Positions 1 through 57,118 of a stretch of 64,000 nt of DNA are shown piece by piece (position 1 is the first letter of the stretch; each line of letters begins with the position of its first letter). The position numbers were made by a program, and so were the translations under genes. Under the pieces are notes generated by a model. The model saw nothing but the letters and a program-made list of their open reading frames with translations, ran no database searches and was not told the DNA's origin. The DNA comes from Mobula hypostoma (Eukaryota), in NCBI RefSeq assembly GCF_963921235.1, contig NC_086097.1:152460001-152524000 (forward strand), in the 5' to 3' direction.

Positions 1-846
1 TCTTCTCACCCTATCTCTTGCAAAAACGCCATCCCCTTCTCGCAATTCCTCCGTCTCCGCCGCATCTGCTCTCAGGATGAAGCTTTTCATTCTAGGACGA
101 GGGAGATGTCTTCCTTTTTTAAAGAAAGGGGCTTCCCTTCCTCCACTATCAACTCTGCTCTTAAACGCATCTCCCCCATTTCATGTACATCTGCTCTCAC
201 TCCATCCTCCCGCCACCCCACTAGGAATAGGGTTCCCCTGGTCCTCACCTACCACCCCACCAGCCTCCGGGTCCAACATATTATTCTCCGTAACTTCCGC
301 CACCTCCAACGGGGTCCCACCACTAAGCACATCTTTCCCTCCCCCTCTCTCTCTGCATTCCGCAGGGATCGCTCCCTACACAACTCCCTTGTCCATTCGT
401 CCCCCCCATCCCTCCCCACTGATCTCCCTCCTGGCACTTATCCGTGTAAGCGGAACAAGTGCTACACATGCCCTTACACTTCCTCCCTTACCACCATTCA
501 GGGTCCCAAACAGTCCTTCCAGGTGAGGCAACACTTCACCTGTGAGTCGACTGGGGTGATATACTGCGTCCGGTGCTCCCGATGTGGCCTTTTATATATT
601 GGCGAGACCCGACGCAGACTGGGAGACCGTTTTGCTGAACATCTACGCTCTGTCCGCCAGAGAAAGCAGGATCTCCCAGTGGCCACACATTTTAATTCCA
701 CATCCCATTCCCATTCTGACATGTCTATCCACGGCCTCCTCTACTGTAAAGATGAAGCCACACTCAGGTTGGAGGAACACCTTATATTCCGTCTGGGTAG
801 CCTCCAACCTGATGGCATGAACATCGACTTCTCTAACTTCCGCTAA
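1..846 (+). CDS. C-terminal part of a Penelope-like element ORF (RT thumb, Cys-rich linker, GIY-YIG endonuclease); 5' part lies outside the window
   Basis: Frame is open from base 1 (SSHPISCKNAIPFSQFLRLRRICS...) to TAA at 844-846. Contains linker CKRNKCYTC and GIY-YIG motif GVIYCVRCSRCGLLYIGETRRRLGDRFAEH, and ends ...LGSLQPDGMNIDFSNFR. The Cys-rich linker suggests the Neptune group (inference). Confidence 0.9.
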   Translation, partial: SSHPISCKNAIPFSQFLRLRRICSQDEAFHSRTREMSSFFKERGFPSSTINSALKRISPISCTSALTPSSRHPTRNRVPLVLTYHPTSLRVQHIILRNFRHLQRGPTTKHIFPSPSLSAFRRDRSLHNSLVHSSPPSLPTDLPPGTYPCKRNKCYTCPYTSSLTTIQGPKQSFQVRQHFTCESTGVIYCVRCSRCGLLYIGETRRRLGDRFAEHLRSVRQRKQDLPVATHFNSTSHSHSDMSIHGLLYCKDEATLRLEEHLIFRLGSLQPDGMNIDFSNFR

Positions 847-1145
847 GGCCCCACCTCCCCCTCGTACCCCATCTGTTACTTATTTTTATGCACACATTCT
901 TTCTCTCACTCTCCTTTTTCTCCCTCTGTCCCTCTGAATATACCTCTTGCCCATCCTCTGGGTCCCCCCCCCCACCTCCTTGTCTTTCTTCCCGGACCTC
1001 CTGTCCCATGATCTTCTTGTATCCCCTTTTGCCTATCACCTGTCCAGGTCTTGGCTCTATCCCTCCCCCTCCTGTCTTCTCCTATCATTTTGCATCTCCC
1101 CCTCCCCCTCCAGCTTTCAAATCCCTTACTCACTCTTCCTTCAGT

Positions 1146-1183
1146 TAGTCCTGACGAAGGGTCTCGGCCTGAAACGTCGACTG
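1146..1183 (+). ncRNA. Minimal type-I hammerhead ribozyme in PLE 3' end
   Basis: TAGTC-CTGACGA-AGGGTCTCGGCCT-GAAA-CGTC-GACTG. Core CUGANGA at 1151-1157, stem II hairpin, GAAA at 1171-1174, palindromic ACGT stem III, GUC cleavage triplet at 1176-1178, stem I TAGTC/GACTG. Confidence 0.85.
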
Positions 1184-2289
1184 CGCCTCTTCCTATAGAT
1201 GCTGCTTGGCCTGCTGCGTTCACCAGCAACTTTGATGTGAGTTGTCAGAGTGTGTATAGTTACAGCAAACACTAGTTGCCAGCTTATCCTAAGAAACAAC
1301 AATTGATATATTGAGCAGAGTAAGGGCTGTGTGAAGGCAAGGAGGGATTTGTAGAAATTGGAAACACATTTGAAGACTGGTTTGTTAACCTCTTCACTGA
1401 TACAACAGGAAAAAGAGACCATTATAAAAATATCCTGCTCAAACTTCAATGACCACACCAGCTAAAAGTGAACTACTGGAACTGTTTCCCTTTTCCAGAG
1501 TTAGGGTAGATTCCAGATATTCAAATGTGCGTCCAGCTGTATTTGAATCCACTGAGGGCTTCTACCTCCACAGCCTTTACATCCAATGAGTTTAAGCTCC
1601 TTACCAGTTACTGGATAAAATGTTTTTATGAAAAACACTTTAAGACAAATAATTTTCTCCTGTTCAGTTTTATGTATCACATTGAAATCTTGGCTCATGT
1701 GCAGTATTCAGAATAAAACAGACCCTAGTCTAGAATGCTCCAATCCTGCAAACAGTCTTACCTACATATTCTGTAGCGTGGTTCTGGAAACATATTCAAT
1801 ACTTCAGCTGGGTCTTAGCTAGTTTTCAACTGTATACTTGCATTACATTTGCATTCTTATCCACTTTATCCACCTCACAGAGAAGTGAGGAAGGAGACCT
1901 GTAAGAATGGAATGAAGAATATTCCTCCATTAGCTTTGGGCTGACTCACTGAACAGAGCTAGCAATCTTGTCACAACTTCCATTCTAGGGAATTCAAGAT
2001 AAGACGTTGCCTGAAAATTGTTGCACAGTGACCCACTTGTCCACATTTGCAATTATCTCAGCAGGTTCAATTTATTACACTCTAGGGAGTCATCCCATTA
2101 GTAAAAAGAAGACTTTGGAAGCTGTGACTTTTAATGGGTATGTTCCAAACCAGTATATGTATTACCTGAAAGTTATCTAATCTGCTAGCAAGTGAGATTT
2201 TCTTCATCATTTGTCTTTTAGTTGCCTTTGAACTACTTAAGAGTCCTTGTGCAATACTCCCAGAAAATTAATTTACAGGTTGAAATATT

Positions 2290-2572
2290 CCCACAATTTA
2301 TAATCTCACTTTCAAGGACCCTTCATCTCATGTTCTTGATAATTATTGCTTATTTATTTGTTATTATTTCTTTCTTTTTGTATTTGCAGTTTGTTATCTT
2401 TTGTACACTGGTTTATGTCCACGTTGGTGTGGATTTTCATTAACTCCATTATGGTTATTATTTAATTATGGATTTATTGAGTATACCTGCAAGAAAAAGA
2501 AATCTGAGGGTTGTATATGATGTCATATATGTACTTTGATGATAAATTTACTTTGAACATTGAACTTTGAAA
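2290..2572 (+). mobile_element. 3' end of a non-LTR retroelement with (TTGAAC)n tail
   Basis: Ends ...ATAAATTTACTTTGAACATTGAACTTTGAA; a related copy lies at 20730-21080. Confidence 0.6.
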
Positions 2573-2824
2573 TGATTTAACCTAGACAATGTTGACAATA
2601 TTAAGTGCCCCTTTGACAAATTTGTAATGCTGGTACTCAACCATAAAATATAAACATGTTACGGCCTGCATTAAAATAATGCACAAATGACTTCTGCTGA
2701 ATATGCTGAATAGAACTGACTGTAATTCTATCCTCGATAAGCGGCTGGGACAGGAAAAAGTGTAAAAATACAGAGTGAAAATGAAGATTAGAAGTAAGTA
2801 AAGTCTTAGCACAAGTCAACATAA

Positions 2825-3340
2825 TTCAGAATTAAAATCAGGTTTATTAACATTGCCATACAGTATGTGTGAAATTTGTTGTTTTGCAACAGCAGTGCGG
2901 TGCAAACAATTATAAGAAATAGCTATAAGTTATGATAATAAATATATCAATAAAAATAAATAGCGCAATATAGTGAGTTAGTGTACATGGGCTCACTGCC
3001 CAGTCAGAAATCTGACAGTGGTGGTAAGAAGCTTTTCCTACAATGTTAAGAGTACATTATCAGGCTTTTGGAGAGGACATGTCCTGGATGGTAAGGGTCA
3101 TTAATGATGGATGCTGCCTTTTTTGAGGTACTGCCTTTTGAAGTTATCCTCCATGGTGGTATGGATTGTTCCCATAGTGGAGCTGGCTGAGTCTAAAACT
3201 CTGCAGCATTTTCGATCCCGTGCTTTGGAACTTCCATACCAGTCAGAATACTCTATAAAGGTACATTTGTAGAAATTTGCTAATCATTTTGGTGACGTAC
3301 CAAATCTCCTGAAACTCCTGATTAAGTCTGCTGATGGTGT
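2825..3340 (-). mobile_element. Decayed Rex1/Babar-like LINE 3' end
   Basis: Colinear similarity to 9169-9690 and 10936-11010 (AATCAGGTTTATT tail region, AAGCTxTTCCT, TACCAAATCTCC). Confidence 0.65.
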
Positions 3341-12385: not shown

Positions 12386-13357
12386 GACATAATCAGGCAT
12401 AAATCAGATTAACCACTGCATGGTCAATAACAGTAGGTCCTCAAAGTCATATAGTCAAGGAACCATAGATTTGTATGGCACAGGAAATGGTCCTTCAGCT
12501 ATCCACGGCGACCATCTACACTAGGGATAGTAGTTGATGGTATGAGGAGGTTGACTACATGATTGCATGATGGCATAAGGAGGAAACACAAAATCTTTCA
12601 GTATGTGGCTAAGATAAAGGCAGTAAATTAGGAAGAGATTCATGTAGAGTATAAACATCAAGACAGACTATTTGGCTAAGTAGTTTTATGGTCTTTATTA
12701 TATATTGTGTACAATTAGCTGGCTTCATTCTCTATCAATAGAATAATTTGGTAAGATCTGCTGTTTTTAATAATAGGAAAATATTCATGCTCAATTATAA
12801 AAAGTGCTACTCATTGACAATGCAAATCTACTGTGAGACCAAGCAAACAAAAAATAATCCAGATGGCATTAACATTCATGGAATAACATTAGAATAAGAC
12901 CTTGGAGCAGTGCCTGTTGAAATTTCTTCATGACCTTTCCAACAACTCCCTGTTGCATTCTGACTTCTGCTAACTCTCCATCCATGTTGACTCCTATTTT
13001 TTTTAAAAAGCTGGAACAGTTGCACTTGTATCATTAAAGCAGTGATCCAGGGTATACGTCCAGAGTGAAATAATGCACTCTGCAAAGGGTGGAGGTGGGA
13101 TGGTGGTGTGTCGATGGGAGCCTTCTGGTCGAATTGTAAATGTCTTGCGGCCCAGTGGAATTATTTATTCTTGAAGTTTTCCAATACAAACAATAAATTT
13201 TGCATTTAAATGTTAGCAATCCTTTCCCATTCAGCTCAATCTCTCTAAGTACTCAGTTATTTTATGGTACAGTGGCTCAGAAATTCTAGTATGCATCTTG
13301 ATAGCTATGTGGGCTATGTAATATAATTTTTAAAGAAAACTATGAAAATCTATGATA

Positions 13358-13787
13358 GCAACACACATCAAAGTTGCTGGTGAACGCAGCAGGCCAGGCA
13401 GCATCTCTAGGAAGAGGTACAGTCGACGTTTCAGGCCGAGACCCTTCGTCAGGACTAACTGAAGGAAGAGTTAGTGAGAGATTTGAAAGTGGGAGGGGGA
13501 GGGGGAGATCCAAAATGATAGGAGAAGACAGGAGGGGGAGGGATGGAGCCAAGAGCTGGACAGGTGATTGGCAAAGGGGATATGAGAGGATCATGGGACA
13601 GGAGGCCCAGGGAGAAGGAAAAGGGGGGGGGACCCAGAGGATGGGCAAGGGGTATAGTCAGAGAGACAGAGGGAGAAAAAGGAGAGTGAGAGAAAGAAAG
13701 TGTGTATAAAAATAAATAACGGATGGGGTACGAGGGGGAGGTGGGGCATTAGCGGAAGTTAGCAGAATTCCTCTTGTTTGCGTTTTT
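13358..13787 (-). mobile_element. Non-coding PLE 3'-end insertion (inverted 3' UTR plus short forward tail)
   Basis: About 13360-13762 is the reverse complement of about 832-1240; 13762-13782 GCAGAATTCCTCTTGTTTGCG is a forward tail piece; 13-bp TSD AAAATCTATGATA at 13345-13357 and 13788-13800. Confidence 0.9.
13420..13457 (-). ncRNA. Minimal type-I hammerhead ribozyme, intact core
   Basis: Reverse complement is identical to 1146-1183. Confidence 0.85.
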
Positions 13788-18373: not shown

Positions 18374-18835
18374 CTTTTTTTTTAGATTATGAGGACACGC
18401 AGTCCTCTTTTATTGTCATTTAGTAATGCATGCATTAAGAAATGATACAATATTCCTCCGGTGTGATATCACAGAAACACAGGATAGACCAAGACTGAAA
18501 AACTAACAAAACCACATAATTATAATATATAGTTACAACAGTGCAACAATACCATAACTTGATGAAGAACAGTCCATGGCACAATAAAAAAGTTCAAAGT
18601 CTCGAAAGTCCCACATCTCACACAGATGGGAGAAGGAAGAAAACTCTCCCTGCCATGCCCGATCACAGTCCGACTCTGAGTCGTCCGAAAACTTCGAGCT
18701 CTGATCAGCCCTCTGACACCGAGTACCGAGCACCATCTCTATCCGAACATTTCGACCTCAGCCTCGGTCGTCAGCAGCAGGCAAAGCCAGGGATTTTGGG
18801 GCCTTCCCTCTGGAGATTCTCGATCGCACAGTAAC
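18374..18835 (-). mobile_element. Poly(A)-tailed retroelement 3' fragment inserted in a CR1 3' UTR relic
   Basis: T-run at 18374-18382, CpG-richer body, CR1 3' UTR-like sequence on both sides. Confidence 0.5.
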
Positions 18836-31182: not shown

Positions 31183-31274
31183 AGAAATGCCTCAGCCCGA
31201 AACGTCGACTGTTTCTCGATTTCCATCGAGGCTGCCTGGTCTACTGAGTTCCTCCAGTATTTTATGTGTGTTGC
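31183..31274 (+). mobile_element. Short PLE 3'-end fragment with the 3' half of the hammerhead
   Basis: CTCAGCCCGAAACGTCGACTG...GCTGCCTGG...TGTGTGTTGC; imperfect flanking repeat AAAAGGTAATAA / AAAAGTAATAA. Confidence 0.75.
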
Positions 31275-32029: not shown

Positions 32030-32660
32030 TGTGTCGATAGTCAGAGGCTTTTTCCCAGGGCTGAAATGGCTAGCATAAGAGGGCATAGTTTTAAGGTGCT
32101 TGGAAGTAGGTACAGAGGAGATGTTAGGGGTAAATTTTTTTCACAGAGAGTGATGAGTGTGTGGAATGGGCTGCTGGCAGTGGTGCTGGAGTCGGAAATG
32201 ATAGGGTCTTTTAAGAGACTCCTGGATGGATACATGGAGCTTAGAAAAATAGACGGCTATGGGTAAGCCTAGGTAGTTCTAAGGTAAAGGATCTATTCGG
32301 CACAGCTTTGTGGGCCGAAGGGCCTGTATTGTGCTACACACACAAAATGCTGGTGGAATGCAGCAGACCAGGCAGCACCTATAGGAAGAAATACAGTTGA
32401 CGTTTTGGGCCGAGACTTTTCATTAGGACTAACTGAAAGAAGAGATAGTAAGACCACTTTCAAATCTCTTACTATCTCTTCTTTCAGTTAGTCCTGACAA
32501 AGGGTCTCGGCCCAAAACATCGACTGTACTTCTTCCTATAGATGCTGCCTGGCCTGCTGCGTTCCACCAGCACTTTGTGTGTGTTGCTTGAATTTCCAGC
32601 ATCTGCAGATGTCCTCGTGTTTGCTGTATTGTGCTGTAGGTTTTCTATGTTTCCATGTTC
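32030..32660 (+). mobile_element. CR1 3' fragment, interrupted by the PLE fold-back element
   Basis: DSQRLFPRAEMASIRGHSFKVLGSRYRGDVRGKFFSQRV...; tail TTTCTATGTTTCCATGTTCC. Confidence 0.9.
32336..32623. mobile_element. 288-bp PLE-derived fold-back element with two decayed hammerheads
   Basis: Inverted arms 32336-32453 and 32467-32584, 13-nt spacer, tail to 32623; 12-bp TSD CTGTATTGTGCT at 32324-32335 and 32624-32635. Confidence 0.92.
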
Positions 32661-57019: not shown

Positions 57020-57118
57020 ACTGTTGGAGGAACTGCTGGAGGAACTCAATAGGTCAAGCAGCATCTGTGGAGGCAAAGGGGTGGTTGATGTTTCCGGGCA
57101 AGATCCTGTTTCAGGACC
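57020..57118 (-). mobile_element. Decayed PLE 3'-end/hammerhead relic
   Basis: Minus strand GGTC-CTGAAAC-AGGATCTTGCCCG-GAAACATC-AACC...AGATGCTGCTTGACCTATTGAGTTCCTCCAGCA. Confidence 0.6.

What the first reader, a model, noticed from the sequence alone, without database searches (positions are those of the whole stretch)
1146..1183. Intact-core minimal hammerhead ribozyme about 300 nt downstream of the PLE GIY-YIG stop codon
Seen: TAGTC CTGACGA AGGGTCTCGGCCT GAAA CGTC GACTG, with all catalytic core positions, stems I and II, and a stem III reduced to the palindrome ACGT. Established: PLE pLTRs carry minimal type-I hammerheads, and motifs with a tiny palindromic stem III are thought to cleave as dimers. 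Inference: cleavage after GUC (1178) processes PLE transcripts, and could cut any plus-strand host transcript if a partner copy is available.
Basis: partly seen in the sequence, partly recalled or inferred. Interest (0 to 1): 0.75.

Follow-up and report, generated by a model that had tools for sequence, protein, structure and literature searches.

The report
Penelope hammerhead, one of 33,000 copies
This is a real but known kind of minimal self-cutting RNA motif at the end of a truncated Penelope-type jumping gene, present in about 33,000 identical copies in this genome; the copies run through its cut site and often begin at its front edge, so it likely does not make the ends of the RNA that gets copied.

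Summary
The motif is at 1146-1183 as described. It lies in the pseudo-LTR of a 5'-truncated, 2.6-kb Penelope-like element (RT, CX4CxxC linker, GIY-YIG; 16-bp target duplication). The genome holds 32,886 exact copies of 1147-1182 and roughly 100,000 with intact cores. Across six subfamilies the motif is kept (26 of 38 positions invariant, against 6 of 40 upstream), varying mainly at N7, loop II and A6C. Cleavage was not testable. Copy ends argue against it making template ends: 3' ends fall near +65 and +100, none at the cut site, while 5' ends pile up at stem I's 5' strand (38 of 158 at risk within 5 nt; 4 of 207 around the cut site). That likely marks the RNA start. In this copy an upstream hairpin is predicted to bury the core, so cutting host transcripts is unlikely. 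I found the pile-up in no paper searched; the scan noted it before on other DNA. Verdict: new member of a known kind.

The parts
1..846 (+). 3' part of the PLE ORF (RT C-terminus, linker, GIY-YIG endonuclease); the copy begins about 1.4 kb left of the window and is 5'-truncated
   Evidence: PF01541, E 1.3e-5; RVT_1 E 2.6e-5, below Pfam's cut-off; GIY-YIG above it
445..471 (+). CX4CxxC zinc-finger-like linker between RT and EN, the mark of Neptune/Nematis PLEs
   Evidence: translation; definition in PMC8557442 passages
847..1145 (+). pyrimidine-rich 3' UTR / pseudo-LTR; in tandem copies it precedes the next unit's ORF
   Evidence: L292-L294, L300, L303, L306
1132..1162 (+). predicted hairpin of the 5' flank with the core and 5' side of stem II; specific to the youngest subfamily
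1146..1150 (+). stem I, 5' strand; 1147-1151 is where 5'-truncated copies of the family most often begin
1151..1157 (+). core box C3 U4 G5 A6 N7 G8 A9
1158..1170 (+). bulged A (between 9 and 10.1), then stem II G.U, G-C, G-C, U.G with a 4-nt loop
   Evidence: feature described in PMC4209133
1171..1178 (+). GAAA box, ACGT palindrome (1174-1177) and predicted cleavage nucleotide C17 (1178)
1179..1183 (+). stem I, 3' strand
1184..1239 (+). element sequence past the cut site, ending at the short (about +61) end of the family
1240..1255 (+). 16-bp target-site duplication (1 mismatch to the copy at L031:6602-6617)
13420..13457 (-). second, identical hammerhead in a separate short insertion of the family
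32351..32625 (.). head-to-head pair of decayed hammerhead-plus-tail stubs (core changed; fails the descriptor)

Best explanation
This is the minimal hammerhead of a young, very abundant Penelope-like element (likely Neptune clade), carried here as a likely passive passenger in a truncated copy, and in the active element it likely sits at the very front of the RNA and cuts only slowly, with help from the element's protein or a partner copy. Shown: in tandem copies the unit is 3,516 bp and the motif lies 139 nt before the ORF's ATG; new copies end about 65 or 100 nt past the cut site; short copies begin mostly at stem I's 5' strand. Inferred: reverse transcription starts at the two tail sites, as shown for the anole element, reads through an uncut ribozyme and runs off the RNA's 5' end some 30 nt before the cut site. 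Inferred: selection in source elements keeps the core for occasional processing of multi-unit transcripts, not for making the ends of the usual template. Inserted copies then decay neutrally.
For: Architecture. Conservation across six subfamily consensuses: 26 of 38 ribozyme positions invariant (mean pairwise identity 0.87) against 6 of 40 upstream (0.51) and 3 of 12 in the linker (0.54); the changes are C/U at the stem I terminal pair, A6C, N7, loop II, position 11.1, and CpG-decay positions in the two oldest groups. Contigs of four other runs lose similarity at 1147 and 1183, the motif's edges (loose ends). 3' ends: of 203 hits, 61 fall at +65 to +74 and 73 at +95 to +105, 3 at +4/+5, none at 0; of 30 copies picked by the endonuclease alone (the window's among them) 28 reach +64 to +105, 2 end at +16/+17. 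5' ends: 38 of 158 at risk stop at -31 to -27 (4.8%/nt) against 0.2-1.8%/nt in the other seven bins and 4 of 207 at -3 to +4; 0 of 26 non-inverted such stubs have UTR-like DNA upstream. Genome-wide, 23,036 of 32,886 exact copies keep the 13 nt upstream, whereas 29 of 29 untruncated copies keep them exactly. Older copies decay as fast in the core (10.5%) as in flanks (9-16%). Literature: PMC4209133, PMC11167929, PMC8557442.
Against: No RNA 5' end or cleavage product was observed; only contigs of runs guessed to be RNA were available. No two-sided compensatory change in stems I or II was seen among subfamilies, and the tail is as conserved as the ribozyme (30 of 45; 0.85), so conservation alone does not prove catalysis. 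The extra-G signal expected from a capped start is modest: G:T 1.07 against 0.62 expected. About half of the stubs at -45 to -22 are inverted junctions (40 of 74), where short inverted repeats could set the breakpoint. The active dimer fold scores -11.5 against -30.3 kcal/mol for the best dimer fold. Neptune membership rests on the linker, no tree was built.
Confidence: 0.6

Rival explanations
1. Cleavage at two successive ribozymes frees a unit-length RNA that is ligated to a circle, and the circle is the template; the cut site is then seamless in genomic copies (model of Cervera and de la Pena 2014).
For: A full 3,516-bp tandem and short head-to-tail arrays of 310, 427 and 435 bp, each unit with a ribozyme, exist in this genome. 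Read-through of the cut site (203 of 260 copies) is what a re-ligated circle would give.
Against: A circle has no end at -31, so it does not explain the pile-up there. Arrays looked rare: a few among the 100 listed of 392 matches. No circular RNA evidence was obtainable.
Confidence: 0.15
2. The motif is kept as a structure or sequence signal (protein-binding site, promoter or splice-acceptor overlap, pause site for the reverse transcriptase) and catalysis is vestigial.
For: A subfamily with A6C, a change reported to slow cleavage (PMC3088659 passage, PMC7151607 abstract), spread widely (197 exact matches; a clade). The youngest subfamily has G.U instead of G-C at 10.1-11.1. Core mutants do not affect insertion in vitro (PMC11167929) and Naiad PLEs thrive without the motif (PMC8557442). 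A pyrimidine tract plus AG ends at stem I, as the Penelope intron does (PMC4209133).
Against: The positions that vary between subfamilies are those a working hammerhead tolerates (N7, loop II), and A6C is a known natural, still active variant. No splice joint at that AG was listed in contigs (25 joints not shown).
Confidence: 0.13
3. One reading: dimer cleavage after 1178 processes PLE transcripts and also cuts host transcripts that read through a sense copy.
For: All core positions are present; tens of thousands of identical partners exist; apparent starts at +1 are about 1.0% of copies against 0.6% at a control position, -10, so a small excess is not excluded.
Against: Starts at -30 are about 10% by the same rough measure (denominators come from only 17-43 sampled copies). 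No 3' ends at the site. The core is predicted to be buried in this copy. Nearby partner copies are mostly inverted, so one transcript carries only one in sense. Published activity is low and no RNA-seq ends were found at the site in anole.
Confidence: 0.12

Closest known systems
Minimal hammerheads (min-HHR) of metazoan PLE pseudo-LTRs, Cervera and de la Pena 2014, PMC4209133 (read: parts 1-2 of 4, abstract to start of methods)
   Same: Type I, 4-5-bp helix I, unpaired nucleotide between 9 and 10.1, palindromic 15.2-16.2, in the pLTR, mostly single or in opposite-strand pairs, reported in fish Xena, Poseidon and Neptune elements.
   Different: Stem II is short (4 bp, not 7-8 as in Schistosoma); G10.1.U11.1 in this subfamily; copy number about 100,000 with intact cores against about 4,000 in coelacanth and 9,000 in Xenopus (different descriptors).
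PAc, Poseidon element of Anolis carolinensis, Frangieh et al. 2024, PMC11167929 (read: parts 1-2 of 4; supplements searched, no term found)
   Same: Hammerhead in the pLTR near the ORF start; two reverse-transcription start sites downstream that define the tail; insertions made from uncut RNA.
   Different: There the ATG is at stem II; here it is 139 nt past the cut site. Here a zinc-finger-like linker points to Neptune. No biochemistry exists for this family.
EN+ PLE insertion units, Craig et al. 2021 PMC8557442 and Arkhipova et al. 2013 PMC3846280 (passages only)
   Same: 5' truncation, partial tandems, adjacent inverted truncated copy, 30-40-bp tail on one side, palindromes at inverted junctions.
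   Different: The passages read do not describe a pile-up of 5' ends at the ribozyme's front edge.
Non-LTR retrozymes derived from PLE pLTRs, bioRxiv 10.64898/2026.07.22.740005 (read: part 1 of 5, discussion, passages)
   Same: Short tandem arrays with a hammerhead in each unit occur in this family (L295-L297); the paper reports retrozymes in one chondrichthyan.
   Different: The window's copy is a single truncated coding copy, not an array.
Small dimer-cleaving hammerhead variants, Lunse et al., RNA Biol (not held; seen only as cited in review PMC6765202 passages)
   Same: Short palindromic stem III, PLE association, dimer requirement.
   Different: Could not be compared in detail.

Membership tests
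PLE minimal type-I hammerhead | Core boxes CUGANGA and GAAA with UH cleavage triplet end | tested here: met
   descriptor hit
PLE minimal type-I hammerhead | Helix I of 4-5 bp closing the motif and helix II with an unpaired nucleotide between 9 and 10.1 | tested here: met
   in the bare 38-mer stem I 0.55-0.98 and stem II 0.87-0.97; near 0 with the native 5' flank
PLE minimal type-I hammerhead | Palindromic 15.1-16.1 segment in place of helix III | tested here: met
   ACGT at 1174-1177; the consensus in five of six subfamilies, CpG-decayed in the sixth
PLE minimal type-I hammerhead | Conserved G10.1-C11.1 pair | tested here: inconclusive
   G.U in this copy and the youngest subfamily; G-C in four of six consensuses
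PLE minimal type-I hammerhead | Location in the pLTR of a PLE | tested here: met
PLE minimal type-I hammerhead | Self-cleavage as a dimer or with protein | not testable with these tools
   only contigs were available
Rfam hammerhead families (Hammerhead_1 and others) | Covariance-model match | tested here: not met
   no hammerhead family among 8 matches at E<=10 in window 1-3000
EN+ Penelope-like element | Single ORF with RT then C-terminal GIY-YIG | tested here: met
   (RT hit below Pfam's cut-off, E 2.6e-5)
EN+ Penelope-like element | Tandem/pLTR layout, inverted truncated partner, 30-40-bp one-sided tail | tested here: met
   family-wide; the window's copy is a single direct copy with the short end
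Neptune clade | CX2-5CxxC linker between RT and EN | tested here: met
   445-471; shared with Nematis
Neptune clade | RT phylogeny groups with Neptune | not tested
   no tree with named references was built
Non-LTR retrozyme | Two or more consecutive tandem units each with a complete hammerhead | tested here: not met
   single copy at this locus; met by other loci of the family

The most novel reading that the evidence does not exclude
The element's capped RNA starts about four bases before the ribozyme core, and tens of thousands of stub copies are run-off products that record this start. The hammerhead is then a switch at the head of the mRNA: cutting removes a 31-nt capped leader, ending translation and leaving a ligatable end. 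Its job would be regulation of the element's own message, not release of the template.
Probability: 0.25. Interest if true: 0.6.

Novelty: new member of a known kind. Interest (0 to 1): 0.27.

Why it matters
The motif class is published, but what it does for Penelope-like elements is still stated to be unclear (PMC8557442). This family gives a young, huge sample in which the ends of copies record the template: uncut, and often starting just before the ribozyme. That turns the open question into simple tests (5' end mapping, cyclic-phosphate sequencing). The single copy at 1146-1183 has no special standing.

Tried and rejected
Rfam scan: no hammerhead. Sequencing runs: no RNA holder listed; the eight runs laid are contigs and cannot show starts, ends or expression. 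A conserved on/off switch by the 5' flank: rejected; burial of the core is strong in the youngest reference (0 of 60 shuffles as low) but not in four other references. The idea that T1170 is copy-specific CpG decay: rejected; it is fixed in the youngest subfamily. Splicing at the AG in stem I: no such joint among those listed, inconclusive. N7=A and N7=U pattern hits are largely mutated copies of younger subfamilies, so those counts are not subfamily sizes. The loose match at 18745-18774 (-) fails the descriptor. In some searches, 4 of 267 tail hits gave no alignment and 3 touched a locus edge (260 counted); that set was found by a tail model, so its 3' ends are biased and only searches are used for 3' ends. 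In one search one reference group with 3 members was left out of the consensus comparison. The 140 sampled stretches are evenly spaced on 13 large contigs, not random over all 200. Whether a host gene overlaps this copy on the plus strand was not examined. No protein database search or tree was run. Literature searches listed no paper whose title or opening abstract concerns the 5'-end pile-up or this family; subscription papers, Repbase and bioRxiv supplements were not seen and may cover them.

Full report
Observation. The window holds 3 matches to the motif against none in 100 shuffles. Rfam lists no hammerhead family even at E<=10, which fits the need for a special descriptor in the paper that defined these motifs (PMC4209133). 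[quoted passage not shown] Positions below are counted from C17 (1178) as 0.

The element. Upstream DNA shows a stop-free frame with RT and GIY-YIG hits and a CX4CxxC linker, which marks Neptune and Nematis (PMC8557442 passages); only Neptune and Poseidon were reported in vertebrates, so Neptune is inferred, without a tree. The copy is 2,622 bp, 5'-truncated, ends at 1239 and is flanked by a 16-bp duplication with one mismatch. Tandem copies elsewhere give a 3,516-bp unit, with the motif 139 nt before the next ORF's ATG. The host is probably a cartilaginous fish; this is recalled resemblance plus earlier notes, not tested.

Abundance. 32,886 exact copies of 1147-1182. In 140 evenly spaced 10-kb samples, 267 tail hits against 0 in a reversed control extrapolate to about 660,000 copies, and 38-60 with intact cores, by three definitions, to about 94,000-149,000.

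Across six subfamily consensuses 26 of 38 ribozyme positions are invariant, against 6 of 40 upstream and 3 of 12 in the linker; the tail is as conserved (30 of 45). Changes fall on the stem I terminal pair (U.G to C-G), A6C, N7, loop II, 11.1 and CpG-decay sites; no two-sided compensation was seen. Contigs of four other runs diverge at 1147 and 1183. In older copies the core decays like its flanks (10.5% against 9-16%), so selection acts on source elements and not after insertion; in young copies the core shows 3 of 332 mismatches against 3-7% in flanks, which subfamily mixing may explain.

Do copies end at the cut site? No. Of 203 hits, 3' ends cluster at +65 to +74 and +95 to +105; three end at +4/+5 and none at 0. 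Of 30 copies chosen by the endonuclease alone, 28 reach +64 to +105 and two end at +16/+17. Two ends about 35 nt apart match the PLE tail, explained by two internal RT start sites (PMC11167929).

Do copies begin at the cut site? Rarely. Of 260 copies, 38 of 158 at risk begin at -31 to -27 (4.8% per nt), against 0.24% per nt at -3 to +4 and 0.2-1.8% in the other bins. These are true truncations: none of 26 non-inverted stubs has UTR-like DNA upstream, and genome-wide 30% of exact copies lack the 13 nt upstream that 29 of 29 untruncated copies keep. Rough genome-wide rates of apparent starts are 10% at -30, 1.0% at +1 and 0.6% at -10 (small denominators). A G before the start is 1.7 times commoner than background (909:846 against 0.62), a modest hint of a cap. 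About half of the stubs at -45 to -22 are head-to-head junctions, where short inverted repeats could also set the break. The sequence there resembles both an initiator (recalled consensus) and a splice acceptor; in Drosophila Penelope an intron ends at helix I and the promoter is internal (PMC2377424 abstract and one section). No splice joint was listed in contigs. I reached this reading, which showed that the scan had noted the same pile-up in this and other genomes; those notes are not independent support.

Could it cut? With its native 5' flank the core is predicted to pair upstream and stem I falls to about 0; an RNA starting at -31 or -35 keeps stems I and II at 0.33-0.68. This burial holds for the youngest reference only, not four others. 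The palindrome duplex is -1.7 kcal/mol and the active dimer fold is far above the best fold, though such models ignore tertiary contacts. Published data agree: no monomer cleavage and low dimer cleavage; protein-assisted cleavage, no need for it in insertion in vitro, and no RNA-seq ends at the site; review passages on dimers. An A6C subfamily spread here, a variant reported as slow but active.

Verdict. The most likely mechanism (0.6) is a slow, assisted ribozyme at the head of the element's RNA, copied uncut, with this copy a passenger. Circles (0.15), a non-catalytic signal (0.13) and routine cleavage of element and host RNA (0.12) remain. New member of a known kind; interest 0.27, owed to the copy number and to the end distribution, which makes the open question of function testable.

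Noticed in passing
L296 (G000:C2:157816300-157817900), L295, L297: Retrozyme-like head-to-tail arrays of the family: four 310-bp units, each starting at -33 joined to ORF sequence, with the cut-site base alternating between units; also 427- and 435-bp units.
   Followed up: partly
L293 and L294 (G000:C2, 3,516 bp apart): A full head-to-tail tandem of the autonomous unit; it gives the ORF start 139 nt past the cut site.
   Followed up: partly
L247-L271 and a clade: A subfamily with the core variant A6C, reported elsewhere as slower and Mn2+-favouring; several copies have PLE ORF remnants upstream.
   Followed up: partly
window 13340-13780 (-): Short insertion of the same family: inverted tail piece joined to the ORF's last codons, UTR, identical hammerhead and short tail.
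   Followed up: partly
window 31191-31274 (+) and 57031-57117 (-): Older, decayed stubs of the same family (71-77% identity).
   Followed up: no
window 18745-18774 (-): A CTGACGA...GAAA look-alike inside another repeat that also occurs in L031; it lacks stems I and II in hammerhead register.
   Followed up: partly
window 1146-1244 frame (1012-1275 +): The ribozyme and tail are stop-free in one frame; the annotated-looking ATG of the tandem unit lies further on, so this may be chance.
   Followed up: no
G000:C1:28958652-28958707 and C1:30295879-30295934: Inverted pairs in which one arm begins at +1 and the other at -30, as fold-back through stem I complementarity would give (listings).
   Followed up: no
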